Source: Okeania sp.
GTDB lineage: Bacteria; Cyanobacteriota; Cyanobacteriia; Cyanobacteriales; Microcoleaceae
Direction of reading: 5' to 3'
Assembly (NCBI RefSeq): GCF_035285525.1
Contig: NZ_JAYKGW010000058.1
Span: forward strand, 19,438 to 51,437
DNA: 32,000 bases
Notes under the pieces: model-generated
The model's database searches: none
What the model was told of the DNA's origin: nothing
What the model saw: only the letters and a program-made list of their open reading frames with translations
Shown: in pieces, positions 3,599-32,000 of the stretch
Layout: every line of letters starts with the position of its first letter
Position numbering within the stretch: the stretch's first letter is position 1
Made by a program: the position numbers and the translations under genes

Positions 3599-3705
3599 AG
3601 GGAACAGGGAACAAGCAATAGGGAACAGGCAATATGTAACAGGGAACAGGGAATAGGCAATAGGCAATATGTAACAGGGAACAGGGAATAGGCAATAGGT
3701 AACAG
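3599..3705. repeat. STRR-like heptamer array (GGGAACA / GGGAATA / GGCAATA units) with a 35-bp higher-order unit repeated twice
   Basis: Read directly. It begins 23 nt upstream of the SDR start codon at 3576. Track ORFs 3464-3667 and 3597-3782 are artefacts of this array. Confidence 0.8.
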
Positions 3706-3711
3706 TTTACT

Positions 3712-8544: not shown

Positions 8545-9228
8545 ACAATAAATCTAGTTTGATATCGAAACAAATAATAAACCAATAATAATTAAATCAT
8601 AATTACATTGATATTCTTTTCACCTTTCTGGCTTTTTGCATATAATAGCAGAAAACAGGGGGCAGAAGTAAATATTTATGCTTAATATTTTCTTGAGAAT
8701 CTGACGAATGAGAAAGTTAAATAAAGATAATTCTTACAGTATAAATATTTATATATACTAATAGGACTTACGCATTCACGCTATTAGTAGTAGTACGTCA
8801 AGGTTGAAAATGTGAGTTAAAAACCTAACCCCCCCCTGCAACGGAAGCTATGCTTTATAAACATCTTTATTTTCTTAACATAAAACTTGACAAGTTATGA
8901 GTAAATATTAATTCGGCTTTTTTGAAAATAAAGTATAAAAAAGTACATTTTTTTTGCAATTACTTAAGTATTTGTATTTAGCTACTATGATTGTTTCTCC
9001 TTTCTCCACTGCTCTCTTCTCCCCGTCTCCCCACAAAAGTTTCAGGATTTCCTGGTAATGGATAGGCAAGGGAAGGGAGAGAAATATAGCGCTGCACGCA
9101 GGCAACAGGCAACAGGCAACAGGGAAGAGGGAGAATAAATTGCTTATAATATAAGGCTTTTAGCTATTGGAAACCTCCTGCAAGTTGTAAAGCGTAAAGT
9201 GCGCACATTGCTATATTTTTCTTGTCGC

Positions 9229-11961
9229 TTATGCTCTCAGGATGAAATCATTCTCACTAATAGATGCAGTATTAGTGAGATTAGCAAATTCACTACCGCT
9301 ACCAAATTCTGCTTCTGTTCCATTAGGATTGTAGAATAACTTCCCGTTACTGCTGTTGTAAACAATAACTCCTGAAGAAGTTTCGGCATCAGCATCAGTC
9401 GTAACTATGGCAAATTCACCATTGATACTGAAACCTCTTCCTGAGTCACTGGTAATAGCAGTAAATGTAGTTTTGTCAAGTATAATTCTATCTTTTTCTG
9501 GCAGAAAATCACTGATGGTATCTATTCCCACATCTTCTTGAGCAAATTCTTGATTAGTATTGAAAATAAAACTGTCAATACCCCCTCCACCAATGAGAGT
9601 ATCGTCACCAGCACCACCGTTAAAGCGATCGCGACCTTGACCACCAATCAGAGAGTCGTCACCATTACCACCAAAGAGGCGATCGCTACCCTGACGACCT
9701 TGGAGGGTATCATTTCCGTTTTTGCCAAACAGGAAGTCATTACCTCGATTACCTATAATTTGGTCATCACCACCACTACCATTGATAGTGTCATTACCTG
9801 CTAAACCTTTAATAGTGTTATTTTCATTTGTACCATTCAGACGATCGCTTTTAGGAGTACCAGTGATATTTGGTGAAATTTGTAATTCTACTGCACCAAT
9901 ATCAACCCCTTCTCCTACAAACCGTGGTTCCCCTCTTTGGTCTGTCGTCAGTGAGTTCGGATTACTACCTGCATCAATGGCGGGACTATTGGGGAAAGGT
10001 AAGTAAGTTAACGTGAGACCACCATTGTCACTAAGGTCTCCAAGTAGAGGATCGGTGATACCTGTTTTGTCGCTATCATCGTCAAAAATATCAATAGCGT
10101 TACCTGTACCAATTAGATTATTGCCACCACTAACAACAGTGTTATTATTTCCTCTAGAGTCAAAATCAGTGCTAGAATTACCAGAGACAATACTAGAGGT
10201 AACAGTAGTATTGGGGTTGAATTCTAACTCATTAATAACTTTAGTCAGAATACCACTTCCTTGATTTGGTTGACCTCCATTACCAGTAATCGTACTATTA
10301 CTGATGCTAGCTGTTCCAGCATTATATATACCACCACCATGGTTAGATATACCTCCGCTAAAAGTGCTATTACTAATATTTGTTGTACCTGTGTTGTAGA
10401 CACCGCCACCACGATTCGCTGAATTCGTACTAAAAGTGCTATTGATAACATCTGTTTGACCTGAGTTCCTGATACCACCACCTGCTAAAAATGTAACATT
10501 TCCACTAAAAGTGGTGTTAGTGATAATAGCTTCGCCTGAGTTATTAATTCCACCACCATTATAAGCATAATTACCACTAATATCGCTATTATTAATGCTA
10601 GCAGTACCTGTGTTAAAGATACCACCACCATCACTTGTATCTGCTGAATTACCACTAATAGTGCTGTCGCTAATATTAACTGTACCTGAATTGAAGATAC
10701 CACCGCCATTACTCCCAGCTGTACCTAGTGAATTTCCAGTAACATTACTGTTATTCAAAGTGACTATACCTGAATTCGAGATACCAGCACCGGTTATATC
10801 TGCTGAGTTTCCACTAATAGTGCTATCTTTGAGATTAACTGTACCTGTGTTTTGAATACCTCCACCAAGACTATTACCAAAATTATCACTAATAGTGCTA
10901 TTGTTCAGATTGACTGTACCTGTGTTTTGAATACCTCCACCATAAAATGCTGAATTTCCACTAATAGTGCTCTTGGTAATATTCGTTGTACCTGTGTTGT
11001 TAATCCCTCCACCACCATTTAAGAAATTCTCTAAATTTCCACTAATAGTGCTGTTATTGAGAGTAAGTGTACCTGAGTTGAAGATACCACCACCAGAATC
11101 ATTTGTTACAAAACCACCTGTAACTTCGGCATTTTGCAACTCTAGATTTGCATTCTCCAAAACATGAAATACTCGATCGCCTAATCCTTCTATACCTCCA
11201 GCATCAATAACTGTTTTTTCAACTCCGTCAGAAATAATTGTTGTTTCTCCACTTCCTGCTACAATATCTAAATCTCCCGTTGCAGCAGCATCTTCATCAC
11301 TTCCTGAGATAGTCAGATTATACGTTGCTCCTGCTGTCAGTTGAATAGTATCATCTTCTGGGGTACTGTTTGCTTTAATTATTGCTTCCCGCAGAGAAGT
11401 AACTCCATCACTATCATCTACTATATCTTCAGTAGTATTTACCACAATATCTGCCAACACTCCTGCATAACTCGCCCTAATTTCTGGAGTAAATGCTAAC
11501 GCTGACTTGAATTTACCGAATATTACTTCTAAATTCCAATTACCACCTCTGTTAATATTTCCTGTCAGGGTTTCCGAGGCAGCAATATTTGCTCCGGTGA
11601 GTTGATGCAGTTGTCGGACAAATTTTTTACCTTCTTTACCACTTGCTACCTGACAACCATAAATTAATATTTCCCCATCAGCAGACAAACATTTACCCCA
11701 CTGCTGCATACTTTCGACGTATAAATGAATATTGTCATTTTTCAGGATACTATTTCCCAGATACAAAGTACCTTTTGCTCCATGAGAAATAATATGAACT
11801 GTTTCCAGATTATGGCATTCACCCAAACTTTTAGATATTTGTTCTATACCATTTTGATTGGGTTGTAGAATAACTACTTCTGTCTGAGAATCAACCTGTG
11901 AGATGAGGTGACTGTAATTTTCTACCTGGGAGTCGATGAATAATAATTTGGTTTTGTGCAT
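9229..11961 (-). CDS. Large secreted repeat protein: DUF4347-like N-terminus, parallel beta-helix repeats, C-terminal RTX calcium-binding repeats
   Basis: ORF 9229-12018, with the likely start at ATG 11961 (MHKTKLLFIDSQVENY..HIISHGAKGTLYLG). About 13 units of NSTISGN..GGGI.N.GT follow. Eight GGxGxD nonapeptides run from GSGGDDQII to GGGGIDSFI. No signal peptide, consistent with a type I secretion substrate. Confidence 0.85.
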   Translation of the reverse strand: MHKTKLLFIDSQVENYSHLISQVDSQTEVVILQPNQNGIEQISKSLGECHNLETVHIISHGAKGTLYLGNSILKNDNIHLYVESMQQWGKCLSADGEILIYGCQVASGKEGKKFVRQLHQLTGANIAASETLTGNINRGGNWNLEVIFGKFKSALAFTPEIRASYAGVLADIVVNTTEDIVDDSDGVTSLREAIIKANSTPEDDTIQLTAGATYNLTISGSDEDAAATGDLDIVAGSGETTIISDGVEKTVIDAGGIEGLGDRVFHVLENANLELQNAEVTGGFVTNDSGGGIFNSGTLTLNNSTISGNLENFLNGGGGINNTGTTNITKSTISGNSAFYGGGIQNTGTVNLNNSTISDNFGNSLGGGIQNTGTVNLKDSTISGNSADITGAGISNSGIVTLNNSNVTGNSLGTAGSNGGGIFNSGTVNISDSTISGNSADTSDGGGIFNTGTASINNSDISGNYAYNGGGINNSGEAIITNTTFSGNVTFLAGGGIRNSGQTDVINSTFSTNSANRGGGVYNTGTTNISNSTFSGGISNHGGGIYNAGTASISNSTITGNGGQPNQGSGILTKVINELEFNPNTTVTSSIVSGNSSTDFDSRGNNNTVVSGGNNLIGTGNAIDIFDDDSDKTGITDPLLGDLSDNGGLTLTYLPFPNSPAIDAGSNPNSLTTDQRGEPRFVGEGVDIGAVELQISPNITGTPKSDRLNGTNENNTIKGLAGNDTINGSGGDDQIIGNRGNDFLFGKNGNDTLQGRQGSDRLFGGNGDDSLIGGQGRDRFNGGAGDDTLIGGGGIDSFIFNTNQEFAQEDVGIDTISDFLPEKDRIILDKTTFTAITSDSGRGFSINGEFAIVTTDADAETSSGVIVYNSSNGKLFYNPNGTEAEFGSGSEFANLTNTASISENDFILRA

Positions 11962-12024
11962 AATTTTAGAAGGGTTTTCAAGTGTAGGAAAAATTAAAAT
12001 TAGCAAGTATTCTAGCATTAATAC

Positions 12025-12117
12025 AGGACTTACGCAAGTGCAACGTATTTTCGTCCGATACGACGGTCGGTAAGCAATCTCAAAGCCCTGTTTTTCCTAC
12101 CTCATGGCTTTAGTCCT
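12025..12117. repeat. MITE-like element, AGGACTTACGCA ... GGCTTTAGTCCT ends
   Basis: Its reverse complement (TAGGACTAAAGCCATGAGGTAGGAAAAA.AGGG.TTTGAGATTGCT) matches the left half of the element at 26712-26866. Confidence 0.7.
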
Positions 12118-12204
12118 ATAATATTTAGCAGTACGCTGAAAACTTTAAAAATTTTTTACAGGAGGTTCATAAATCTTCCGTATCTAACTCTTAACTACTA
12201 CCTA

Positions 12205-14889: not shown

Positions 14890-17007
14890 TTACGGTTCAA
14901 TGTAGTTTTCCACTGTTTTGAAGGTATTGCCTTTTGAAAACTGATACTCGTAAAGGGTTTGGAAAAACTTAAGATCGACCTGGCGCCAGCTAACCCAGCC
15001 AATTCCTGAATATCTATCATCAGACAACGAGTACAATACAAAGCTTAACACATGGTTGATGTAAATGAGCGAAAATCCTTCTTGCTCCAGGATGACATTT
15101 TCTGTGTTACTGCGCTGATGTACCATGATCTGAAATGGTGATTCGTTGTTCCAGTCATCTTGAATAGATTGATTAAGAGCATTATATACCTGATTTTTGA
15201 AGTGATGAGTGTCATGCTCAAGCACGAAGCGAAACTCTTCTCTTTCGGTGTCCATTGCCGTTCTCTTGAAAAAATCATGGTGTCCGTCGGTTATAATCTT
15301 GTGGACAAAAGGAATGGAATATATAGCCTTGACATGACCTAAAGCATAAAGCGCTTCCACCGTCTCCAGTTGTTCGACAAAAAAGCGTCCCTGCTCAAGA
15401 TCAAAGCTATTATCAATCACTCGCTTCAATTCAGGAACTTCCTCCAGTTGATCGGGATCAATATTCCTTAACAAAGCGGGGATGCTTTGTCTTTTTTGAT
15501 ATTGCGTATCAAGAACTAAAGTAAGTTCTTTCGTCTCACCAGCAAGCAGATGATCTCTTAGTTGACGTTGGAAAGAAGGAAGGTATATCTTCTGGTTTTC
15601 ATTCCAAAACATTGACCTAATTGACAACTCTGCCGATGAATCGACATTGTTATTCGTTTTCCAATCTGCAACCACATGACCGACAACCTGTGATTTACCT
15701 AAGAAGGAGCCCCGTTTAGCTTGCCAAATCTGTACAGCTTTATGGGTTGGTCTGACGGGACCGACTTTCAAACTGTATTGGTTATCGAAGCTATAGGTAT
15801 AAACTTTTTCTTCTTGACGATTCTGTTGCGCGATTCGCTCAATGTTGCCTTCCATAGGTGTTCCTGGAAGGGAGAACTTCACTCCTGAAGATGTTTGTGT
15901 AGAAGAAAGGTTTCTCCTGACATTATTATCACTGAATGAAATGCTCTGATCGTTCAAATCAGCATAGTATTCTTTTACCAGAGTAAACCTAATTCCAGAC
16001 AAATTATTGAAATAATCAGCGTCTAGTAAAAATCTGTTTAACTTTTCATACAGCCAACTTAGTAGTAGTGATAAAAACAGTGGAATTAACACCAACATCA
16101 TCAGTTCCCAGGGAGTCGATAACCATAAAAAGGAAAGAAAAGAATTATCTGTTTGATCTAAGAACATATCAAATGCCAAAACATATTGATTTCCATCCAT
16201 GTCTTTGAAACGATACCAGAGTGCTCTGATGGCATTGGGAGTCCTTTTATCAGTGATATCAATGAAAATTCCAGTAAGTCCTGATGTACCTTCATAAACT
16301 TTTTGCGAATAAAAAGTCTCATATTCATTTATACTAGATTTATACCAAGGGCGCTCTCTGTAGTTAAGTTTTCTGTTATTGAAAACTCCATCTGAAGTCC
16401 CAGGATAAAGAGCTATAACACCATTTTTTTCATCAAATAAGTAGACAGTGTCTATTCTGAATCCAGGTACTCGATCTAAAAAATTCAGATCGCCTGTGAG
16501 ATACTTAATAAATATTCTGCTATGTTCTAGACTAACGTCTTCAGGTTTTTTCGAGAGTAACTTCTCACCTTGCTGAAGCATTAGTTTTTGAAATTGACGA
16601 AAAACAACGCTTTGTTTTGATTGGTCAGATCGCTTTTGGTATTCGGTCTTCGATTCCGTATCAAAGTCAGCGATATAGATACAATCAAAATAGGCATCTT
16701 TTTTTATACTATTTTTTTTAATTTCTATTTTGAGAGCGTTATTACATTTACTAAAATCTGAAAGTTCTTGATTTTGGGGCAACACGCGCAGACCGTCAAT
16801 CTCATCCTCAAGATTTTCCTGAGCTTTCTTGATAAAATCTTCAAAAACCTGAGTTTTAGGTGTTTCTTCTTTCAAACTTTGATGCCATGCAATATTAAGA
16901 GCTTGTCGCTCTAATTCCTGACGTAATCGAAAAATTGGAACTTCAACGAAACAGATTGCGATAAAAATCAACAAAAGCCTTACTGGTTTTACAGATTGCA
17001 AATTCAT
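14890..17007 (-). CDS. Two-TM membrane protein with a Cache-like extracytoplasmic region and an unassigned ~385-aa cytoplasmic region
   Basis: ORF 14890-17037. The preferred start is ATG 17007 (MNLQSVKP..), preceded by GGAG about 10 nt upstream. In 715-aa ORF numbering, TM1 is about 19-36 and TM2 about 301-330. YRERPWYKSS at 226-235 resembles the RPWY signature of Cache sensor domains. I see no HAMP, H-box, GGDEF, EAL, MCP or Walker motif downstream. Confidence 0.75.
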   Translation of the reverse strand: MNLQSVKPVRLLLIFIAICFVEVPIFRLRQELERQALNIAWHQSLKEETPKTQVFEDFIKKAQENLEDEIDGLRVLPQNQELSDFSKCNNALKIEIKKNSIKKDAYFDCIYIADFDTESKTEYQKRSDQSKQSVVFRQFQKLMLQQGEKLLSKKPEDVSLEHSRIFIKYLTGDLNFLDRVPGFRIDTVYLFDEKNGVIALYPGTSDGVFNNRKLNYRERPWYKSSINEYETFYSQKVYEGTSGLTGIFIDITDKRTPNAIRALWYRFKDMDGNQYVLAFDMFLDQTDNSFLSFLWLSTPWELMMLVLIPLFLSLLLSWLYEKLNRFLLDADYFNNLSGIRFTLVKEYYADLNDQSISFSDNNVRRNLSSTQTSSGVKFSLPGTPMEGNIERIAQQNRQEEKVYTYSFDNQYSLKVGPVRPTHKAVQIWQAKRGSFLGKSQVVGHVVADWKTNNNVDSSAELSIRSMFWNENQKIYLPSFQRQLRDHLLAGETKELTLVLDTQYQKRQSIPALLRNIDPDQLEEVPELKRVIDNSFDLEQGRFFVEQLETVEALYALGHVKAIYSIPFVHKIITDGHHDFFKRTAMDTEREEFRFVLEHDTHHFKNQVYNALNQSIQDDWNNESPFQIMVHQRSNTENVILEQEGFSLIYINHVLSFVLYSLSDDRYSGIGWVSWRQVDLKFFQTLYEYQFSKGNTFKTVENYIEP

Positions 17008-17440
17008 TGCATAATTTCTCCACAACAACAACAACATCGGTCAAACCAAACAGATTGAGGAAACAGCTAAAGAAAACTAAATATAGTGTTAGTGCAATTT
17101 GCGATCAGCTTCCTTTAATTCTCTTGAAGGTTTGAAAATTTTTAGGTATCAAAAAGTGCTAGCTTTTAGGTGTTTCCACACAAAAATTTAGCATTTTGGG
17201 TAAGAGTTGGGCAGAAAAACTAAGGGACAATTTTTCCGAGTACTTCTTCTATAATTCTCATTGATTCTGATACCAAATCCGGGCACAAAAAAGGTGTATA
17301 CATATATATTGGTTAACACCTTTATACCTCTAAAATAATTAAGCTTAAACTTAAACTACCTGAATAAAAAGTTAGTTTCCGTAAATAAATTTATGTAGAT
17401 TTATATAGATTATCGAGGAGTTTTTAATAGCATAAATTAT

Positions 17441-17555: not shown

Positions 17556-17616
17556 GTAGGGGTTTGGTCTCCAAACCTCTACAATAAAATCTTACAACCT
17601 ATTTAGGATTGCTATA
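17556..17616. repeat. Copy of the GTAGGGGTTTGGTCTCCAAACC...AGGATTGCTATA element
   Basis: Matches 3712-3801 minus that copy's internal insertion. Its last bases supply the TAG stop (17612-17614) of the EVE gene. Confidence 0.7.
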
Positions 17617-18067
17617 CATTTTTCATGGCTAAAATTTTCTCTGCCACATTTTCAGCAACAGGCATTACAGATAATCTATTTCCTTTTTTAACAACTAATA
17701 ATTCATCTTCAGTAAATTGTTGTTTTAAATTAGCTAAAGATATTAACTGAGGAAATTCTTCTACAAATTCTACAGAAACAGTCTGCCACCGAGGTGCATT
17801 AGGAGTAGATTTAGAATCATAATATTTGCTTTCTGGGTCAAACTGAGTAGGGTCAGCAATGCCACTTTCTAATATTTTTACTAACCCAATAATCCCAGGA
17901 GGTGTAGTATTAGAATGATAGAAAAATGCTAAATCTCCAGGGTTCATTTGTCGGATAAAATTCCGTGCTTGATAATTTCTTACTCCATCCCAAATACAAG
18001 TTTTTTCTTGTTTCATATCTGAGATACTGTAAGTTTTTGGTTCTGATTTGATTAGCCAATATTTCAT
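17612..18067 (-). CDS. EVE (PUA-like) domain protein
   Basis: 151-aa ORF: MKYWLIKSEPKTYSISDM...WDGVRNYQARNFIRQMNPGDLAFFYHSN...G(I/L)VKI. This is the characteristic standalone EVE layout. Confidence 0.85.
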   Translation of the reverse strand: MKYWLIKSEPKTYSISDMKQEKTCIWDGVRNYQARNFIRQMNPGDLAFFYHSNTTPPGIIGLVKILESGIADPTQFDPESKYYDSKSTPNAPRWQTVSVEFVEEFPQLISLANLKQQFTEDELLVVKKGNRLSVMPVAENVAEKILAMKNV

Positions 18068-18068
18068 A

Positions 18069-18105
18069 GGGGAATAGGGAATAGGGAGTAGGGAGTAGGG
18101 AGTAG
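18069..18105. repeat. Heptamer array (GGGAATA)2(GGGAGTA)3
   Basis: Starts 1 nt upstream of the EVE ATG (18067). The same GGGAGTA array occurs at 31544-31585 and in degenerate form at 26508-26560. Confidence 0.8.
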
Positions 18106-18115
18106 TTAAGGGTTT

Positions 18116-18165
18116 GGTAACACAACCTTCGGTGGTTGTTACAGCAAACGAAGGCTGTGTTACAG
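18116..18165. repeat. Twin-hairpin repeat GGTAACACAACCTTCGGTGGTTGTTACAGCAAACGAAGGCTGTGTTACAG
   Basis: Near-identical to 23338-23386. Lies between the hydantoinase-like stop and the EVE start. Confidence 0.75.
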
Positions 18166-18189
18166 TGGATTTGCTGTAACTGATAACTG

Positions 18190-23155: not shown

Positions 23156-23337
23156 AAGATAGGGTTAGGGGTTCTATAAATCCCTATTTCTCTTGACTAT
23201 TCACTATAAATCATAAACAAGTAGCACCATCTAATTAAAATTTTACCCCCTGAACGTTTCCTGGTTCAGCTATCTGTCAAGAATTACAGCAATTTCACGC
23301 CCGCGCGTGAGGTACAAAATTTTATTTAGTAACTTTA

Positions 23338-23386
23338 GTAACACAACCTTCGGTGGTTGTTACAGCAAACGAAGGCTGAACTGCAG
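23338..23386. repeat. Twin-hairpin repeat AGTAACACAACCTTCGGTGGTTGTTACAGCAAACGAAGGCTGAACTGCAG
   Basis: Near-identical to 18116-18165. Confidence 0.75.
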
Positions 23387-23456
23387 TAGGTGTTAAGTGT
23401 ACCTTACCATCCTCATGCATTGCTATAAAACAATAGGTATTAGAAGAGGTTTCTTG

Positions 23457-26690: not shown

Positions 26691-26711
26691 GATAACATTT
26701 TGATTAAAATT

Positions 26712-26866
26712 AGGACTAAAGCCATGAGGTAGGAAAAATAGGGGTTTGAGATTGCTATCCTGACGGACTGCGACCCATTCATGTCGCGGAGCGAAACGCT
26801 GTCGCTTGCTATCGCAAAGCTGCGAGTCGCGCCATGACAAAATTGCGTTGCGCATGGGTAAGTCCT
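26712..26866. repeat. MITE-like element (TAGGACTAAAGCC ... GCATGGGTAAGTCCT)
   Basis: The left half matches rc(12025-12117). The central TTTGAGATTGCTATCCTGACGGACTGC block matches 12772-12800. Confidence 0.75.
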
Positions 26867-27088: not shown

Positions 27089-28150
27089 ATGGAATTTGAT
27101 CATATTCATTTCTACGTTGAAAATGCTATAGAGTCACGAGAGTGGTTTAGAGAAAAATTAGGTTTTAAGTCTATTGCTTCTCAAACCAGTGAACACACTC
27201 AAAAAGAAATTATCAACAGAGGTCAAGTATATTTTGCCTTATCTTCTGCTATCACATCAAAAAGTCCGGTTGCTAATTTTCTGAGTTTACATCCTCCTGG
27301 AGTCGCTGATGTAGCTTTTCGGGTTGGAGATATTAACTCAGTTGTGACAAAAGCAGCAGTTAACGGAGGAAATATTTTGCAACCTATTCAACAAAACTTA
27401 CAAGGTTTGAAGTGGGCAAAAATTTCTGGATGGGGAGACTTGACTCATACTTTAATCGAAAAAATTGATAATGCACAAATTTTTAATTCTCCCAAACAAC
27501 TTTCTAGAAATATTGTAGCGATCGATCATGTAGTTTTGAATGTAGCTGAGGACAATTTAAAATCTGCTTTTAACTGGTATCATCAAATCTTAGATTTCCA
27601 ACCTCATCAAAATTTTGATATTCAGACAAAAAAATCTGGTTTGCGTAGTCAAGTGATGATACACCCAGAGGGAGAAGTAAAATTTCCGATCAATGAACCT
27701 ACATCCCCTAATTCTCAAATTCAAGAATTTTTAGATGCTAACTGTGGTGCGGGGATACAACATATTGCTTTACGGACAGAGAATATTTTGGGAGTGGTAG
27801 AAGAGTTGCGATCGCTTGGTTTACCTTTTTTACAAGTTCCAGGAACATATTATTCTAGTTTGGAAAAGAAAGCATTAAGTTGTTTATCAGAAACTGACTG
27901 GCAAAAAGTTCAAGATTGTGAAATTTTGCTAGATTGGCAAAAGAGTATACCAGGAGCAATGCTACTACAAATTTTTACTCAACCAATATTTAAGCAACCA
28001 ACAGTATTTTTTGAATTTATTGAACGTAAAATTGTGTGGGTAAATGGTAAAAAAATGGAAACTCCTGGTTTTGGTCAAGGTAATTTTCAAGCTTTATTTG
28101 AAGCTATTGAAAGAGAACAAATGAAGCGAGGTAGTTTAGGGAAAAATTAA
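27089..28150 (+). CDS. hppD: 4-hydroxyphenylpyruvate dioxygenase
   Basis: The track ORF begins at TTG 27083. ATG 27089 gives MEFDHIHFYVENA.., the usual cyanobacterial N-terminus. Fe ligand contexts are IDHVVLNV, GIQHIALRT and FFEFIERK. The C-terminus is GFGQGNFQALFEAIEREQMKRG. Confidence 0.92.
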   Translation: MEFDHIHFYVENAIESREWFREKLGFKSIASQTSEHTQKEIINRGQVYFALSSAITSKSPVANFLSLHPPGVADVAFRVGDINSVVTKAAVNGGNILQPIQQNLQGLKWAKISGWGDLTHTLIEKIDNAQIFNSPKQLSRNIVAIDHVVLNVAEDNLKSAFNWYHQILDFQPHQNFDIQTKKSGLRSQVMIHPEGEVKFPINEPTSPNSQIQEFLDANCGAGIQHIALRTENILGVVEELRSLGLPFLQVPGTYYSSLEKKALSCLSETDWQKVQDCEILLDWQKSIPGAMLLQIFTQPIFKQPTVFFEFIERKIVWVNGKKMETPGFGQGNFQALFEAIEREQMKRGSLGKN

Positions 28151-28277
28151 TATTAAAACTTTACTATACAAAAATCTAAATTAGAGCAAAGTGGATTTTT
28201 TCCAGATTGAACAACTTCAAGAAGAATTGCTTGACCAGTAGTTTCACCTTCTGGATTAAATTTCAGAATTTCTTTTA

Positions 28278-28803
28278 TTACTCATAATGGTATTTATAGG
28301 CAATAATAATAATTTCATCATTAGTTACTTTATAAACTAAATGGTGTTCGTTATTGATACGTCTTGAGCAATAACCACTAAGTTCAGATTTAAGAGGTTT
28401 TGGTTTAGGTAAACCAGAAAATGAAGAACGGTCAATATCTTTAATTAGGGTTTGCTTAAAAAGTCTTTTAGGAGCGGGGAGAAGCCATAATCCAGAATCG
28501 GTGAATCCAGGAGGAATAGGAATTATAGAAGAGGTAGGAGGAAGAATTATCCGTTGATTTACGGTTCCCGAAAAATAGGCTAATTATGGTAGAAAATCCT
28601 AGATTTTTTAGCTTGAAAGACTTAGAAAGCTGGTACTTTTTTGAGACCTAAAAATGCTAAAAGGTTTTACAAATAAAGCTTTGATATTTTCATACACAAG
28701 TCCTAATTAGAGTGATTATTTTCTGATTAATTTTTTTATCAATTTTCACCCATTCAGTAAAGTATGAAAAAGCAGAAGTTTCAAATACTATTCTTTTGCT
28801 CAC
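28278..28803 (-). pseudogene. yoeB: yoeB (Txe/YoeB toxin) gene split by a 256-bp insertion
   Basis: The N-terminal piece 28705-28803 reads (GTG)VSKRIVFETSAFSYFTEWVKIDKKINQKIITLI. The C-terminal piece 28278-28442 reads KDIDRSSFSGLPKPKPLKSELSGYCSRRINNEHHLVYKVTNDEIIIIAYKYHYE*. Joined they give 87 aa, colinear with E. coli YoeB (..LIKDT.R.PF.G.GKPEPLK..LSG.WSRRI..EHRLVY.V.....I...RYHY). Not in the ORF track. Confidence 0.75.
28449..28704. mobile_element. 256-bp non-coding insertion in yoeB flanked by a 6-bp direct repeat AATTAG
   Basis: AATTAG occurs at 28443-28448 and 28705-28710, read as CTAATT (Leu-Ile) on the coding strand in frame on both sides. The interior shares blocks with the repeat at 22870-22990. 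One end reads ..CACAAGTCCT, resembling the AAGTCCT terminus of the local MITE family. No clear TIR seen. Confidence 0.65.
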
Positions 28804-28808
28804 TCGAT

Positions 28809-29048
28809 TTATTCTAATGAAAGTTCAATTAAATTGGTTTTATGTTCGACATTTTTCACAGCATTTAATAGTCTATTTTTGTTGGTTTTGCTTTTCAATA
28901 AGTAGGATGTTTCGTCAACTTCAGAAACAATATTTTCAATTTCTTTTTCTATTAAAGTTTCAATATATTTTTCAATTGATAAGTATTAGAATTTAGCTTT
29001 TTCTTTGATTTTAGCTTCAATTTATGGTTTTAAATTAATAGTAATCAT
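28809..29048 (-). pseudogene. YefM-type antitoxin gene (RHH-like N-terminus, YefM-like C-terminus) with two in-frame TAA
   Basis: My translation: MITINLKP*IEAKIKEKAKF*YLSIEKYIETLIEKEIENIVSEVDETSYLLKSKTNKNRLLNAVKNVEHKTNLIELSLE*. Internal stops are at 29022-29024 and 28986-28988. ETSYLL.S..N..RLL matches the YefM C-terminal toxin-binding segment (ETAYLLRSPANARRLM). Its stop lies 5 nt before the yoeB GTG. Track ORF 28796-28996 (+) is antisense to it. Confidence 0.6.
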
Positions 29049-29167
29049 TATCTTTGATTTATGTTTACAATACTCTTAAAGACTTAAAAAAAATCACTTA
29101 TAAAAATAATATATAAATTTTATAATATGATAACAATAATTAGTCGTTTTTATATCCATTTTTATAT

Positions 29168-29259
29168 CCCCCCTTTGCAAGAAGGGAGTCAAGAAAAAAC
29201 TCTCCTTTGTAAAGGAATAGCCAAGAAAAAGTTCCCCTTACAAAGGGGGATTTAGGGGG
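29168..29259. repeat. Three tandem ~32-bp units, each with a short palindrome (CCCTTTGCAAGAAGGG; TCCTTTGTAAAGGA; TCCCCTTACAAAGGGGGA); possible terminator stack
   Basis: Read directly. The block starts 6 nt downstream of the stop (29265-29267) of the 754-aa gene on the minus strand. Confidence 0.55.
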
Positions 29260-29264
29260 ATTAT

Positions 29265-31529
29265 TTATTGTTTTCTTTTGCGCTTTCGAGCAGCATCAGT
29301 AGATTTTAATAATTTTAATTGATAAGGGTCAACATCGTTACGCCAATAAAGACGATGACCTTTAATTTCTGTACAATTTTCTTCTAAACATTTGAGCCAT
29401 CCTAGTCTATTTTGAATTTGTTTGAAATTATTTAAAAGTCCTCTATCTTCTTCTTGTACTGTCAGTTTAGCAAATTTTTCATAGTGGGGATAATCTGAAG
29501 TAACTAAAGCATCTTTTCTATGCAAAATTGGTGGATTATATTCTTTTGTATAATCCTGATAGCTCACGCTCAAGTCTCGCAAATCAACATTCATTGTTGT
29601 ATGTAAAACTGGGTGAGCTTCTTTATCAAAGTCGGGATAAAATAAATAAGATATTATTGGTAACTTATAATGAAATTTAACGATATTTACTTCATTTAAT
29701 CTACCAATTGTACGATTAGCACAACCTTCATAAAGTCGTAATAAGGGGTCAAGTTTGACTATAGCCGAAACATGAACTAACAAAAAATTAGTAGATTTAT
29801 AACCAATAGAACTATTTCGACAACATTTGCTAATTAAATCAGAATCACCTAAACTAAATAACATTAAATCAGCTAAAGTGCAGGCGTTTGTATAACTTCC
29901 AAATAAAGCTTTAATATCATTTCTGACTACTACGGATAATTGGGAAAATTTTGGTCGATTACCAAATTTAGTTAAAGCCAGATATACTAAGAAATCTTGA
30001 CGGCGTTTATCGGTTATAGCATCCCATTCTTGATAGTTTGTTACCTGAAGAATTACCTGGAAAGCACGACGAAAAGTACCAAATTCTGCAATTAAATCTG
30101 TTTCTTCCGCAAGTTCTCCTCTAACTGGTAAACGACCGCGATCGCTCATAAAGTTCATCAAAGGAATAAGCTGTTCTTGATAATCTTCAAAGCGTTTATT
30201 TTTACAACTAATTCTGGGGGTAGATAAACGAGTTCTTAATCGAGATGCGCGGAAATTTTGAGCTTCTGCTTCATCTCTAAAAACCAAGAAAATTCCTAAA
30301 TCAATAGGAATTGAATCTACATTTAAAACTTGGTCAATATAAGATTTTAATTCTTCTTGTTCATAATATTTTTGAAAAGTCTTACGAGATGTAATTATGC
30401 CATCTCCATAAGCAAGTTTTCCTTCAGTTTTACTATCATTAACTAATACTAAAGAAGAAACAATTAAAACTTTTTTAGTTAACTGCCAAGATTTAATCAA
30501 AGCTTCCCTACGTTCGGCTAAAGATTCTATCACATTAATTACATAACCAAGATTAACAATATCAGCAGCAATGCAAGAAGTTTCTGGCAAATAATAAGGA
30601 TCCCAACCAGCACTTAAATAACCTTTTTGATTAATAAATTTAATATCTTCGCCATGACCACAACCATAGTCAAAAAAGGTTGTGTTTTCTGTAAATAAAT
30701 TTGCTTCTAGAGCTAAACGTACTGGTTTAGAAATTTTTTTACGAACTATAGCAGCTTTATGACGTTCTATTTGCGGAATTGGTTTTTCAATAGTATGTTG
30801 AATTACACGATGGTCTTTAATTTCTATGCCATGATTTTTTAGGTGTTTTAACCATCCTTGACGAGTACCAATTAAACGAGTATTATCTAACAGTCCGAGT
30901 TTAACTTCAGCAGAGGTTAATTTAGCAAATTTTTGATAGTGGCGATATTCAGGAGTAACAAAAGTTTCTTTCCGATGCAGAACCGGAGGATTTTCACTAT
31001 TACTGTAATTTCTCTGTTCAACTTTTCCATTATTCAGATTAATAGAAATGCTATTTTTTAAGGCAGGATGAGGGTGAATATTAAAATCTGGATAGTGTAA
31101 ATAAGAAATTGTTGGTTTATCAAAATTAAATTTGATTAATGTTATGGTTTTGGCATCAGTTTTTTGGTGAGAAAGAGATTTCAAATATAAATGATGAGCG
31201 ATATTTTCGTAAAGTTGTAGAAAAGGATGAAGTTTTTCTAAAGCTGAGATATGAATATAAAATGCAGTTGGTAATTTTTTCCCTATTTGGCTTTGTTGGC
31301 AGTATTTTTTTATGGTTCCTGGTTGATAAAGTTCTAAGAATATTTGGTTAGCAAATTCACAAGCAGATTTATAAGTACCAAAATAAGTTTTAATTAGGTT
31401 TCTAACTTTTTGGGGTAAGTTTGTTTCTAATTTAATTTTGGATGATATTTGAAAGTTTTCTATATTTAAAAGTAGATATCGTAGCAGTTCATAATAACTT
31501 TTTTGTTGAGAATCAAGTTGGTTATTCAT
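29265..31529 (-). CDS. SAM-dependent methyltransferase-like protein with a duplicated ~200-aa flanking module; resembles the DNA phosphorothioation-associated putative methyltransferase family
   Basis: 754-aa ORF. Motif I FFDYGCGHGED lies at aa 285-295. Module A is about aa 42-242 and module B about aa 535-727. They align colinearly: VRNLIKTYFGTYKSAC / VRNDIKALFGSYTNAC, ISYLHYPDF / ISYLFYPDF, NPPVLHRKE / NPPILHRKD, HYQKFAKLT / HYEKFAKLT, GWLKHL / GWLKCL, IKDHR / IKGHR. The family call is from my memory of the NPPILHRKE signature, not a search. Confidence 0.8.
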   Translation of the reverse strand: MNNQLDSQQKSYYELLRYLLLNIENFQISSKIKLETNLPQKVRNLIKTYFGTYKSACEFANQIFLELYQPGTIKKYCQQSQIGKKLPTAFYIHISALEKLHPFLQLYENIAHHLYLKSLSHQKTDAKTITLIKFNFDKPTISYLHYPDFNIHPHPALKNSISINLNNGKVEQRNYSNSENPPVLHRKETFVTPEYRHYQKFAKLTSAEVKLGLLDNTRLIGTRQGWLKHLKNHGIEIKDHRVIQHTIEKPIPQIERHKAAIVRKKISKPVRLALEANLFTENTTFFDYGCGHGEDIKFINQKGYLSAGWDPYYLPETSCIAADIVNLGYVINVIESLAERREALIKSWQLTKKVLIVSSLVLVNDSKTEGKLAYGDGIITSRKTFQKYYEQEELKSYIDQVLNVDSIPIDLGIFLVFRDEAEAQNFRASRLRTRLSTPRISCKNKRFEDYQEQLIPLMNFMSDRGRLPVRGELAEETDLIAEFGTFRRAFQVILQVTNYQEWDAITDKRRQDFLVYLALTKFGNRPKFSQLSVVVRNDIKALFGSYTNACTLADLMLFSLGDSDLISKCCRNSSIGYKSTNFLLVHVSAIVKLDPLLRLYEGCANRTIGRLNEVNIVKFHYKLPIISYLFYPDFDKEAHPVLHTTMNVDLRDLSVSYQDYTKEYNPPILHRKDALVTSDYPHYEKFAKLTVQEEDRGLLNNFKQIQNRLGWLKCLEENCTEIKGHRLYWRNDVDPYQLKLLKSTDAARKRKRKQ

Positions 31530-31543
31530 TGCTATTTGACAGA

Positions 31544-31585
31544 GTAGGGAGTAGGGAGTAGGGAGTAGGGAGTAGGGAGTAGTAG
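31544..31585. repeat. Heptamer array (GTAGGGA)5
   Basis: Starts 15 nt upstream of the ATG (31529) of the 754-aa gene. Same heptamer as at 18069-18105. Confidence 0.85.
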
Positions 31586-31747
31586 TAATTCAGGAAATAG
31601 GGAATAGAAAATCAGGAAAAAAGTTGTATTTTAGTAACTTGATAAATCCTATTTAGGGAGTGGGCAGTAGGGAGTAGCAGTAATTTAGGAAATAGTGAAT
31701 AGAAAATCAGGAAAAAAATTGTATTTCAGTAACTTGATAAATTCTAT
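31572..31747. repeat. Tandem duplication of an 81-bp unit (31572-31652 and 31667-31747, period 95 bp)
   Basis: GTAGGGAGTAG.AGTAATT.AGGAAATAG.GAATAGAAAATCAGGAAAAAA.TTGTATTT.AGTAACTTGATAAAT.CTAT occurs twice with about 6 mismatches, in the 5' region of the 754-aa gene. Confidence 0.8.
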
Positions 31748-31780
31748 ATTTTAATACTAAATAAGTTGTAAAATTTACTC

Positions 31781-31870
31781 GTATGGGTTTGGTCTCCAAA
31801 CACAAACCAATAAGGGATTTGGAAAGCAAACCCCTACAGTTTTTTCCAAGAATTATTTAGGGTTGCTATA
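31781..31870. repeat. Copy of the G(G/T)GGTTTGGTCTCCAAAC...AGGGTTGCTATA element
   Basis: Colinear with 3712-3801, including the internal GGATTTGGAAAGCAAACCCC stem. Confidence 0.65.
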
Positions 31871-31907
31871 TAAAACTACTAACTCACAACTGATAATCTA
31901 TTGAAAA

Positions 31908-32000
31908 TTAACTCCACATTCCTACATCCTCTATTATTTTTTCAAAATAAGGAATCGAACTAACAACAGTTTCAGTTTTAGATAACTCTTTTTCTGAAAC
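31908..32000 (-). CDS. Possible 3' end of a gene running off the window (30 codons + TAA)
   Basis: Open frame from the window edge reads VSEKELSKTETVVSSIPYFEKIIEDVGMWS*, with the stop at 31908-31910. No family recognised and too short to judge. Confidence 0.25.
   Translation of the reverse strand, partial: VSEKELSKTETVVSSIPYFEKIIEDVGMWS

What the first reader, a model, noticed from the sequence alone, without database searches (positions are those of the whole stretch)
29265..31529. 754-aa methyltransferase-like protein built as module-MTase-module, orphaned from any dnd/restriction partner and sitting next to toxin-antitoxin debris
Seen: a SAM motif-I core (FFDYGCGHGED, aa 285-295) is flanked by two colinear copies of a ~200-aa module (aa ~42-242 and ~535-727). 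The copies share many identical blocks: FG.Y..AC, IG(K/Y)K, H(I/V)SA..KL.P.L.LYE, ISYL.YPDF, HP.L, NPP(V/I)LHRK(E/D), HY.KFAKLT, GLL, GWLK.L, IK.HR. The tail is basic (KRKRKQ). Established, from memory and not searched: the C-terminal module with NPPILHRKE is the signature of proteins annotated as DNA phosphorothioation-associated putative methyltransferase, which usually have one such module and lie near dnd genes. Here no dndA-E, dptFGH, restriction endonuclease or helicase gene is visible within 29265-32000 or downstream. The neighbours are a disrupted yoeB/yefM pair and MITEs, an island-like context. Inference: the duplication could give a pseudo-dimeric nucleic-acid-binding scaffold. The protein may act as a solitary modification or defence-related enzyme.
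Basis: partly seen in the sequence, partly recalled or inferred. Interest (0 to 1): 0.65.

Follow-up and report, generated by a model that had tools for sequence, protein, structure and literature searches.

The report
Ordinary two-module dnd-family methyltransferase gene
This is an intact, typical cyanobacterial copy of a widespread but never-characterised methyltransferase family named for its frequent linkage to DNA-phosphorothioation genes; its doubled flanking module and its lack of partner genes are the rule in cyanobacteria, not an oddity.

Summary
ORF 29265-31529 (-) encodes 754 aa. A SAM motif-I core (FFDYGCGHGED) is flanked by two colinear copies of a ~200-aa module (40% identity, E 2e-53). 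The protein matches NCBIfam TIGR04096, 'DNA phosphorothioation-associated putative methyltransferase', at 926 bits. Each module alone also passes the family cut-off.

The claim of novelty does not hold. Module-MTase-module (MTM) is the standard architecture: 93 of the 120 closest homologs, 72 of 80 cyanobacterial species loci, and 39 of the 90 complete-looking distant representatives, Proteobacteria included. The N and C modules are ancient paralogues, not a local duplication.

Lacking partners is also usual. Of the 80 cyanobacterial loci, 59 have no dnd or ssp gene within about 10 kb. The local gene order, ccsA - KGK gene - MTase - yefM/yoeB, is shared with Okeania and Dapis. The gene is under purifying selection (dN/dS about 0.2). 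This is a vertically kept chromosomal gene, not island cargo.

Function is still unknown for the whole family. The core resembles small-molecule or RNA methyltransferases, with no DNA-methyltransferase motif IV. The module has no Pfam model and no PDB relative. Elsewhere the family sits inside dndBCDE, sspBCD-like and PAPS-reductase/FtsK loci.

Interest is low to moderate.

The parts
29265..31529 (-). Complete CDS, 754 aa, TIGR04096-family putative methyltransferase with module-MTase-module architecture
   Evidence: ORF listing. TIGR04096 926 bits against a cut-off of 150. dN/dS 0.18-0.23 against four orthologues.
30804..31424 (-). N-terminal family-specific module (aa 36-242), containing NPPVLHRKE at aa 180-188
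   Evidence: Self-alignment E 2e-53. Alone it hits TIGR04096 positions 277-477 at 200 bits. It belongs to the 'N-type' paralogue lineage. dN/dS 0.18-0.30.
30225..30773 (-). Class-I SAM-dependent methyltransferase core (aa ~253-435)
   Evidence: Modelled as a Rossmann fold, with PDB Foldseek hits only to generic class-I MTases such as Trm9, GSMT and CmoA. Weak Methyltransf_23 hits in 27 of 42 homologs.
30645..30677 (-). SAM-binding motif I, FFDYGCGHGED (aa 285-295)
   Evidence: Read from the translation. Nine of the 11 positions are invariant in 42 homologs.
29970..30197 (-). Helical linker between the MTase core and the C module (aa ~445-520)
   Evidence: Helices 447-464, 476-483, 486-496 and 499-520 in the model. 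dN/dS 0.08-0.18.
29349..29948 (-). C-terminal family-specific module (aa 528-727), containing NPPILHRKD at aa 665-673
   Evidence: Self-alignment. Alone it hits TIGR04096 positions 267-478 at 284 bits. Module model pLDDT 92, pTM 0.84. No PDB fold or sequence relative.
29268..29327 (-). Basic C-terminal helix ending in KRKRKQ (aa ~735-754)
   Evidence: Sequence. Helix 735-753 in the model. R748 is invariant and K739 nearly invariant.
31908..32000 (-). 3' end of the upstream KGK-domain gene (PF08872 family), cut by the window edge
   Evidence: The translation ...IPYFEKIIEDVGMWS* matches the C-terminus of the Okeania KGK protein. KGK lies directly upstream of the MTase in 10 related loci.
31542..31747 (.). 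Intergenic repeats between the KGK gene and the MTase gene: heptamer GAGTAGG x5.9 and a 95-bp tandem duplication
   Evidence: Tandem Repeats Finder. Repeat families D2 and D9.
28800..29051 (-). yefM-like antitoxin pseudogene downstream of the MTase
   Evidence: tblastn with the Okeania 83-aa protein: 83% identity with three in-frame stops.
28278..28749 (-). yoeB toxin pseudogene, split into 28702-28749 and 28278-28451 by about 250 bp
   Evidence: tblastn with Okeania YoeB (PF06769 on record) gives two pieces.

Best explanation
Shown: the gene is an intact, vertically inherited, ordinary member of the TIGR04096 family ('DNA phosphorothioation-associated putative methyltransferase') in a Trichodesmium/Okeania-group cyanobacterium. 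Its architecture is one SAM-binding Rossmann core between two anciently diverged paralogous copies of a family-specific ~200-aa alpha/beta module. This is the standard cyanobacterial and proteobacterial form of the family.

Shown by comparison: the architecture fits a decay series. An ancestral tandem duplication of the whole MTase+module unit was followed by loss of motif I in the first MTase copy, and then by loss of that copy altogether. Both modules stayed under purifying selection.

Inferred mechanism: the two modules act as an intramolecular pair, standing in for a homodimer of the single-unit form. They hold the substrate while the single catalytic core transfers a methyl group from SAM. 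The family is embedded in dndBCDE, sspBCD-like and PAPS-reductase/FtsK loci in other genomes. The substrate is therefore most likely DNA, or a component of the DNA sulfur-modification pathway. The chemistry is probably not that of classical N6-A, N4-C or C5 DNA methyltransferases.

In this genome the gene has no PT partner in cis. It presumably works alone or with unlinked genes.
For: Family membership: 926 bits against a cut-off of 150, covering the full model. Each module separately exceeds the cut-off.

Standard architecture: 93 MTM plus 25 TMTM among the 120 closest homologs, and 39 MTM, 47 TM and 3 TMM among distant representatives. 72 MTM and 7 TMTM among 80 species loci. Proteobacterial plasmid copies of 620-690 aa cover query aa ~75-730.

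Ancient paralogy: in 39 of 39 distant MTM proteins, the N module is closer to cyanobacterial N modules and the C module to C modules. Modules of single-unit proteins are C-like in 42 of 47.

Decay series: the first MTase copy lacks GxGxG in 24 of 25 TMTM proteins, while the inner copy keeps it in 25 of 25 (example sequences).

Intact and constrained: motif I is invariant. dN/dS is 0.18-0.23 overall and below 0.3 in every region.

Vertical inheritance: ccsA - KGK - MTase synteny occurs in 10 related loci and in the window.

PT linkage elsewhere:
- dndBCDE lies next to the MTase in Pseudoalteromonas, Arthrobacter and 11 cyanobacterial loci.
- DUF4007 + large ATPase + PAPS reductase lies next to it in Trichormus plasmid A, a Rhodobacteraceae plasmid and 10 cyanobacterial loci. 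These correspond to SspB, SspC and SspD according to PMC12839542.
- A PAPS-reductase/FtsK cluster lies next to it in Azospirillum, Methylibium and Microvirga.
Against: - No experiment exists for any member of the family; no paper on it was found.
- The catalytic core resembles small-molecule and tRNA methyltransferases and Methyltransf_23. The strand-4 region reads ADIVNLGYVINVIE, without a (D/N/S)PP(Y/F/W) or PC motif.
- Synechocystis 6803 carries an MTM homolog on pSYSM. All five of its DNA methylation motifs are assigned to other enzymes (PMC6105098).
- Three quarters of cyanobacterial copies have no PT gene nearby, so DNA/PT as substrate rests on guilt by association from a minority of loci.
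- The model does not define how the two modules sit relative to the core (pTM 0.43), so the 'intramolecular pair' is not shown structurally.
Confidence: 0.6

Rival explanations
1. One reading: an unusual, newly duplicated 'module-MTase-module' enzyme, stranded from its dnd or restriction partners in an island-like region, acting as a novel solitary modification or defence enzyme.
For: No PT or restriction genes are in the window. Decayed yefM/yoeB genes lie next door. Some plasmid-borne homologs sit among defence-type genes: CRISPR cas1/cas2, HigB and HNH in Picosynechococcus, and HNH plus DUF4276 + AAA ATPase in Synechocystis pSYSM.
Against: The architecture is the family norm and ancient. 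The solitary state is the majority state in cyanobacteria. The locus is syntenic with Okeania and Dapis between housekeeping genes (ccsA upstream; rhomboid or yefM/yoeB downstream). There is no PADLOC model hit. The rest of the window is ordinary metabolism.
Confidence: 0.08
2. The enzyme does not methylate DNA at all. It methylates a small molecule, a protein or an RNA, for example a sulfur-carrier or persulfide intermediate, a PT-pathway protein, or a tRNA. The modules would bind that substrate or a partner protein. The dnd/ssp linkage in some genomes would reflect a shared sulfur or SAM chemistry rather than a DNA mark.
For: The best structural matches of the core are Trm9, glycine-sarcosine N-MTase, CmoA, and halide and bacillithiol MTases. 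There are weak Methyltransf_23 hits and no DNA-MTase Pfam hit. No unassigned DNA methylation motif remains in Synechocystis 6803, which has a homolog. Most cyanobacterial copies are unlinked to PT genes. A conserved Cys/His-rich ~190-aa partner protein is adjacent in 18 of 80 loci and fused to the MTase in Methylibium.
Against: Repeated embedding in three different DNA-PT modification gene sets across phyla. A basic C-terminal helix. Weak HNH-associated helical-repeat hits at the start of the C module in 7 of 42 homologs. None of this is decisive.
Confidence: 0.28
3. The gene is a decaying remnant of a lost PT island and no longer functions.
For: The neighbouring toxin-antitoxin genes are pseudogenes. 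No PT genes are nearby.
Against: The 754-codon reading frame is uninterrupted. Motif I and 100+ other columns are invariant. dN/dS is about 0.2 in all regions against four orthologues. Orthologues of the same length occur across the clade.
Confidence: 0.03

Closest known systems
NCBIfam TIGR04096 (dnd_rel_methyl), 'DNA phosphorothioation-associated putative methyltransferase'
   Same: Full-length match far above the cut-off. Same motif I, same linker and same signature module with NPP[IV]LHRK[ED]. Orthologues at 80-87% identity already carry this name in NCBI records.
   Different: The 478-position model describes only MTase + one module. This protein, like most cyanobacterial and many proteobacterial members, has a second, N-terminal paralogous module. 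Here there are no PT genes nearby. The family's function has never been tested.
Single-unit (TM, ~470-500 aa) and double-unit (TMTM, ~900-1050 aa) members of the same family
   Same: They use the same building blocks. The C module of this protein is the counterpart of the single module of TM proteins (42 of 47 are C-like). Its N module is the counterpart of the inner module of TMTM proteins (21 of 25 are N-like).
   Different: TM proteins have one module. TMTM proteins keep a first MTase-like domain that has lost motif I in 24 of 25. Six of seven TMTM genome loci lie at the 3' end of dndBCDE. The window's protein has lost that first domain altogether and is unlinked to dnd.
Classical DNA methyltransferases (N6-adenine/N4-cytosine amino-MTases, C5-MTases), including the orphan cyanobacterial enzymes M.Ssp6803I-III
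   Same: A SAM-dependent Rossmann fold with a GxGxG motif I. It is a solitary gene in a cyanobacterial chromosome, as are the orphan MTases described in PMC6105098.
   Different: There is no (D/N/S)PP(Y/F/W) or PC catalytic motif after strand 4, and no Pfam DNA-MTase hit. The NPP[IV]L motif lies in the accessory module, not in the Rossmann fold, and lacks the aromatic residue. The flanking modules are unrelated to known target-recognition domains.
Dnd (DndABCDE) and Ssp (SspABCD) DNA phosphorothioation systems
   Same: Family members are encoded inside or next to these operons in Proteobacteria, Actinobacteria and about a quarter of cyanobacterial loci.
   Different: The MTase is not one of the defined Dnd or Ssp components. 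It is not discussed in the comparative-genomic reappraisal of Dnd systems (PMC10853773). The window contains none of those genes.
Pfam Methyltransf_23 / small-molecule and tRNA class-I methyltransferases (Trm9, CmoA, GSMT)
   Same: These are the closest detectable relatives of the catalytic core, by fold and by weak profile hits.
   Different: The similarity is marginal (Foldseek E >= 1.8e-3, Pfam E >= 2.5e-4, below gathering scores). None of them carries the flanking modules.

Membership tests
NCBIfam TIGR04096 (dnd_rel_methyl) | Whole-protein score above the curated cut-off (150 bits), with end-to-end coverage of the 478-position model | tested here: met
   926 bits; aa 253-730 match model positions 1-478.
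NCBIfam TIGR04096 (dnd_rel_methyl) | SAM-binding motif I in a class-I Rossmann core | tested here: met
   FFDYGCGHGED at aa 285-295, invariant in 42 homologs. Rossmann fold in the model, with class-I MTase Foldseek hits.
NCBIfam TIGR04096 (dnd_rel_methyl) | Family-specific C-terminal ~200-aa module (model positions ~270-478, NPP[IV]LHRK[ED] signature) | tested here: met
   Present twice. The C copy scores 284 bits and the N copy 200 bits on their own. The copies are 40% identical.
NCBIfam TIGR04096 (dnd_rel_methyl) | Genomic association with DNA phosphorothioation genes (the basis of the family's name, not of the HMM) | tested here: not met
   No dnd or ssp gene is in the 32-kb window, nor within +/-10 kb in the syntenic Okeania and Dapis loci. 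Whether such genes exist elsewhere in the genome could not be tested. The DndC search was uninformative.
NCBIfam TIGR04096 (dnd_rel_methyl) | Methyltransferase activity and its substrate | not testable with these tools
   No experimental work on any member was found.
Classical DNA amino-methyltransferases (N6-A / N4-C) | Catalytic motif IV, (D/N/S)PP(Y/F/W), after strand 4 of the Rossmann fold, and a Pfam N6_N4_Mtase, MethyltransfD12 or N6_Mtase match | tested here: not met
   The strand-4 region is ADIVNLGYVINVIE. There is no such Pfam hit in the protein or in 42 homologs. NPP[IV]L lies outside the Rossmann fold.
C5-cytosine DNA methyltransferases | PC(Q) catalytic motif and a Pfam DNA_methylase match | tested here: not met
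   No Pfam hit and no PC motif in the core.
Known anti-phage defence system components (PADLOC-DB 2.0) | Match to any PADLOC protein model | tested here: not met
   0 families at E <= 1.
Dnd / Ssp phosphorothioation system (as a system present at this locus) | DndC/SspD PAPS-reductase-like ATPase together with DndD/DndE or SspB (DUF4007)/SspC in the neighbourhood | tested here: not met
   Pfam scan of all window ORFs of at least 100 aa, plus smaller neighbouring ORFs, found none.

The most novel reading that the evidence does not exclude
The TIGR04096 family could be a new kind of nucleic-acid modifying enzyme. A Methyltransf_23-like core would be guided by a pair of modules of a previously unseen fold, together with the uncharacterised Cys/His-rich ~190-aa partner seen in other genomes. 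It would place a non-canonical methyl mark on DNA, for instance on or next to phosphorothioate linkages. In cyanobacteria such as this one, the unlinked, vertically inherited two-module copy would have become a housekeeping epigenetic or repair-related enzyme independent of PT. The window's gene would then be a typical representative of that unexplored system, not a special case.
Probability: 0.18. Interest if true: 0.65.

Novelty: new member of a known kind. Interest (0 to 1): 0.27.

Why it matters
For this window it matters little. The gene is a routine, already nameable member of a known family.

The family itself is a genuine gap in knowledge.
- It recurs in three different DNA phosphorothioation gene sets.
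- Its signature module has no Pfam model and no solved or detectably similar structure, despite a very confident prediction.
- It has a conserved unannotated partner protein.
- No experiment addresses any member.

Tractable homologs exist on Synechocystis 6803 pSYSM and on Trichormus variabilis plasmid A. Anyone working on PT systems or cyanobacterial epigenetics could test them directly.

Tried and rejected
- Pfam on the protein, on 42 homologs and on 21 isolated modules gave nothing significant for the module. The core gave only weak Methyltransf_23 hits.
- PADLOC gave no hit.
- PDB by sequence profile gave nothing for the module, and only E >= 0.056 for the whole protein.
- PDB by fold gave only generic MTases for the full model. 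For the module the best hit was E 0.64 with TM about 0.2, meaning no relative.
- The viral structure library gave one partial match to an unnamed 1232-aa phage protein (E 1.6e-5, 109 columns). It is uninformative about function.
- Phage genome search found one weak partial hit in a 485-kb uncultured phage.
- Literature: no paper deals with the family. The Dnd reappraisal paper does not mention it.
- Looking up the window's own protein in the contig index failed, because the indexed gene call differs.
- KGK as a general partner is rejected. It is adjacent only in the Okeania/Trichodesmium clade.
- 'Module-only' proteins of about 275-295 aa in the representative search start at an internal Met of the linker. 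The one that was checked sits on a 1.2-kb contig, so these are treated as fragments, not as stand-alone modules.
- Similarity of the first 35 residues to the linker would have shown a truncated first unit. It is not significant: 614 of 2000 shuffles scored as high.
- Searching DndC homologs for Okeania or Trichodesmium entries, to see whether PT genes exist elsewhere in such genomes, failed. The list was saturated with Nostocales and other hits at 74% identity or more, and none was named from that clade. The result is inconclusive.
- The structural pseudo-dimer could not be judged, because the inter-domain geometry is unreliable (pTM 0.43).
Full report
**1. The observation**

The ORF at 29265-31529 on the minus strand is real and uninterrupted: 754 aa with an ATG start. 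A public gene call of 774 aa begins at a non-canonical codon inside the upstream heptamer repeats. Orthologues of 754-759 aa begin at the position of the ATG at 31529, so 754 aa is preferred.

The SAM motif I, FFDYGCGHGED, sits at aa 285-295. It is invariant at nine of eleven positions in 42 homologs.

The internal duplication is beyond doubt. Residues 36-242 align with 528-727 at 40% identity over 207 columns, E 2e-53. The most conserved stretch, NPP[VI]LHRK...HY.KFAKLT, is still detectable as a 77-nt DNA repeat exactly 485 codons apart. The basic KRKRKQ tail is there and is modelled as the end of a long terminal helix.

**2. Family**

NCBIfam TIGR04096, 'DNA phosphorothioation-associated putative methyltransferase', matches at 926 bits against a cut-off of 150. 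Residues 253-730 cover the whole 478-position model. So the model describes MTase + linker + one module.

Pfam has no model for the module and gives nothing significant for the protein. PADLOC has nothing.

**3. Is the two-module architecture unusual? No.**

The 120 closest database proteins are all cyanobacterial. They include 80-87% identical orthologues from Trichodesmium, Okeania and Dapis that already carry the family name.

I built HMMs of the module and of the core and classified these 120 proteins:
- 93 are module-MTase-module (MTM).
- 25 are MTase-module-MTase-module (TMTM, about 900-1050 aa).
- Only 2 are anything else.

An exhaustive phmmer search with the C module alone, against 1.84 billion cluster representatives, found 1743 proteins at E <= 1e-3. 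The best 150 break down as follows:
- 39 are MTM (620-859 aa).
- 47 are single-unit TM (about 470-500 aa).
- 3 are TMM.
- 59 are short 'module-only' entries.

Five such module-only entries that were read start at an internal Met of the linker. The one looked up sits on a 1.2-kb contig, so I treat these as fragments.

Proteobacterial plasmid copies of 620-690 aa cover query residues about 75-730, so they are two-module proteins too. The best 80 loci are all cyanobacterial and span many orders. Of these, 72 are MTM, 7 are TMTM and 1 is truncated.

**4. Age and origin of the duplication**

In all 39 distant MTM representatives, the N module is closer to cyanobacterial N modules and the C module closer to C modules. 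The single module of TM proteins is C-like in 42 of 47. The inner module of TMTM proteins is N-like in 21 of 25. N and C are therefore old paralogous lineages. The duplication happened once, deep in the family.

In TMTM proteins the inner MTase keeps GxGxG in 25 of 25. The first MTase-like domain has lost it in 24 of 25 (examples). This fits a series: a full tandem duplication, then decay of one catalytic centre, then loss of that domain (MTM). Both modules are retained throughout.

The AlphaFold model (mean pLDDT 81) has pTM of only 0.43, so it does not define how the domains sit together.

**5. The locus**

The window ends inside a KGK-domain gene (PF08872 family) directly upstream of the MTase gene. 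Downstream lie a yefM-like pseudogene with three in-frame stops and a yoeB gene split by about 250 bp.

The same order, ccsA - KGK - MTase, followed by yefM/yoeB or a rhomboid gene, is found in Okeania, Dapis and related assemblies. That makes ten loci in all. The Microcoleus clade has its own conserved synteny around the gene.

The rest of the window encodes ordinary metabolism: HPPD-like dioxygenase, SDRs, phosphoglucomutase, epimerases, hydrolases. It contains no dnd, ssp, restriction or helicase genes.

dN/dS against four orthologues is 0.18-0.23 overall and below 0.3 for the N module, core, linker and C module separately.

So the gene is a stably inherited chromosomal gene under purifying selection. 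It is not island cargo and not a remnant.

**6. Is being 'orphaned' unusual? No, not in cyanobacteria.**

I clustered all ORFs of the 80 species loci and searched them with reference Dnd and Ssp proteins taken from annotated plasmids:
- 11 loci have dndC/D/E next to the gene. These include six of the seven TMTM loci, where the MTase lies at the 3' end of dndBCDE.
- 10 loci have a divergent DUF4007 + ~1170-aa ATPase + PAPS-reductase set.
- 59 loci have neither.

Among the 32 loci with at least 9 kb on both sides, 23 have neither.

Outside cyanobacteria the PT linkage is common:
- dndBCDE directly downstream in a Pseudoalteromonas megaplasmid.
- dndA-E next to a single-unit copy in Arthrobacter.
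- cysteine desulfurase - MTase lying divergent from DUF4007/ATPase/PAPS reductase in a Rhodobacteraceae plasmid and in Trichormus variabilis plasmid A.
- A PAPS-reductase - two unknown genes - giant FtsK-domain protein - MTase arrangement in Azospirillum, Methylibium and Microvirga.

DUF4007, the BrxC-like ATPase and the PAPS reductase correspond to SspB, SspC and SspD according to PMC12839542. Cyanobacterial dnd clusters are known to be varied and to lack dndFGH (PMC8569181).

**7. What the parts look like**

The catalytic core folds as a class-I Rossmann methyltransferase. Its nearest solved structures are small-molecule and tRNA enzymes (Trm9, glycine-sarcosine N-MTase, CmoA, and halide and bacillithiol MTases), and only at E >= 1.8e-3. 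The only recurrent Pfam signal is a weak Methyltransf_23 hit in 27 of 42 homologs. The strand-4 region reads ADIVNLGYVINVIE, so the catalytic motifs of amino- or C5-DNA methyltransferases are absent. The NPP[IV]L motif that recalls 'NPPY' lies in the accessory module, not in the Rossmann fold.

The module, predicted alone from 21 N and C copies, gives a very confident model: pLDDT 92, pTM 0.84. It is a helical sub-domain followed by an alpha/beta sub-domain.
- It has no relative in the PDB by fold (best E 0.64, TM about 0.2) or by profile.
- It has one partial match to an unnamed 1232-aa phage protein in the viral library.
- Residues invariant across N and C copies include two His, two Glu, two Lys and several Tyr. 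That would suit a binding or catalytic pocket, but nothing more can be said.
- Weak hits to the helical 'HNH-associated repeat' at the start of the C module in 7 of 42 homologs, and the basic terminal helix, are the only hints of nucleic-acid binding.

**8. Mechanism**

Shown: family membership, architecture, integrity, constraint, synteny, and the contexts of relatives.

Inferred: one SAM-dependent catalytic centre is served by two cooperating substrate-binding modules. The substrate is probably DNA or a component of the DNA-sulfur modification pathway, because three unrelated PT gene sets have recruited the family.

Against a classical sequence-specific DNA base methyltransferase:
- The core type is wrong and the motifs are missing.
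- Synechocystis 6803 carries an MTM homolog on pSYSM, 54% identical. Its methylome has five motifs, all assigned to other enzymes (PMC6105098).

A non-DNA substrate therefore remains a serious rival; I give it about 0.28.

**9. Comparison and novelty**

The gene is a member of TIGR04096 by every sequence criterion. The only 'feature' it fails is the genomic association that gave the family its name, and most cyanobacterial members fail it as well. It is not a member of the classical DNA-MTase families. Orthologues are already annotated with the family name.

I file it as a new member of a known kind with low interest. The points of wider interest belong to the family rather than to this locus: an unmodelled and structurally unrepresented module, an ancient N/C paralogue pair, decay of the first catalytic domain in the double-unit forms, and a conserved unannotated partner protein.

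**10. Seen in passing**

- A ~190-aa Cys/His-rich protein has no Pfam, NCBIfam or PDB-sequence match. It lies beside the MTase gene in 18 of 80 cyanobacterial loci of many genera, with or without PT genes. It is fused to the C-terminus of the MTM protein on Methylibium plasmid RPME01. It is absent from the window.
- The window also holds an EVE-domain ORF.
- It holds a 715-aa ORF with no family match.
- It holds a DUF4347/RTX protein with eleven ~75-nt repeats.
- Heptamer arrays typical of filamentous cyanobacteria occur at several intergenic sites.

Noticed in passing
Not in the window; e.g. L044:15249-15830 (-), L045:12085-12672 (-), L048:6103-6663 (-), L064:9372-9986 (-); fused in L007:8515-11583 (+): A ~190-aa Cys/His-rich protein (invariant C20, C72, H101, C114, C121, D122, H157 in alignment A3) has no Pfam, NCBIfam or PDB-sequence match. 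It lies beside the MTase gene in 18 of 80 cyanobacterial loci of many genera, with or without dnd/ssp genes. It is fused to the C-terminus of the two-module MTase on Methylibium plasmid RPME01. It is likely a functional partner of the family.
   Followed up: partly
Homologs P0021-P0059, P0083 (TMTM forms); loci L047, L049, L050, L056, L080, L083: In the ~900-1050-aa double-unit forms, the first MTase-like domain has lost the GxGxG motif in 24 of 25, while the inner one keeps it in all 25. Six of seven such genome loci sit at the 3' end of dndBCDE.
   Followed up: yes
window 31908-32000 (-): The 3' end of a KGK-domain gene (PF08872 family, cyanobacteria-specific, function unknown) lies directly upstream of the MTase gene. 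This adjacency is conserved only in the Okeania/Dapis/Trichodesmium clade: 10 loci.
   Followed up: yes
window 28278-29051 (-): A yefM-like antitoxin gene has three in-frame stops (28800-29051). A yoeB toxin gene is split into two pieces (28702-28749 and 28278-28451) by about 250 bp. The intact pair occupies the same position in Okeania sp. SIO3I5. The inserted 250 bp was not characterised.
   Followed up: partly
window 31542-31747; also 3600-3706, 9101-9137, 18070-18120: Heptamer arrays (GAGTAGG / GGGAACA types) occur at several intergenic sites. A 95-bp unit is tandemly duplicated (91% identical) between the KGK and MTase genes. One public gene call wrongly extends the MTase ORF into the heptamers.
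   Followed up: partly
window 17612-18067 (-): A stand-alone EVE-domain protein (PF01878, E 3e-54). From memory rather than from any search here, EVE domains are thought to read modified bases in nucleic acids. It lies 11 kb from the MTase gene, and no link between the two was examined.
   Followed up: no
window 14890-17037 (-): A 715-aa ORF has no Pfam or NCBIfam match at all.
   Followed up: no
window 9229-12018 (-): A 929-aa protein has an N-terminal DUF4347 domain and RTX calcium-binding repeats. Its gene contains eleven tandem ~72-84-nt repeat units at 10255-11100.
   Followed up: no
window 18113-18166 and 23334-23387; 12073-12118 and 26711-26756: Short dispersed repeats are present: a 54-nt element in two direct copies (91% identical), and a 46-nt element in two inverted copies (96% complementary), all in intergenic DNA. 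They may be miniature mobile or regulatory elements.
   Followed up: no
L006 (Synechocystis sp. PCC 6803 plasmid pSYSM, record 28096-30168): The model cyanobacterium carries a two-module homolog (WP_011153563). Nearby are a small HNH gene, DUF433, a DUF4276 + AAA ATPase pair and a cysteine desulfurase. The published methylome assigns all five motifs to other enzymes, which makes this a convenient test case.
   Followed up: partly
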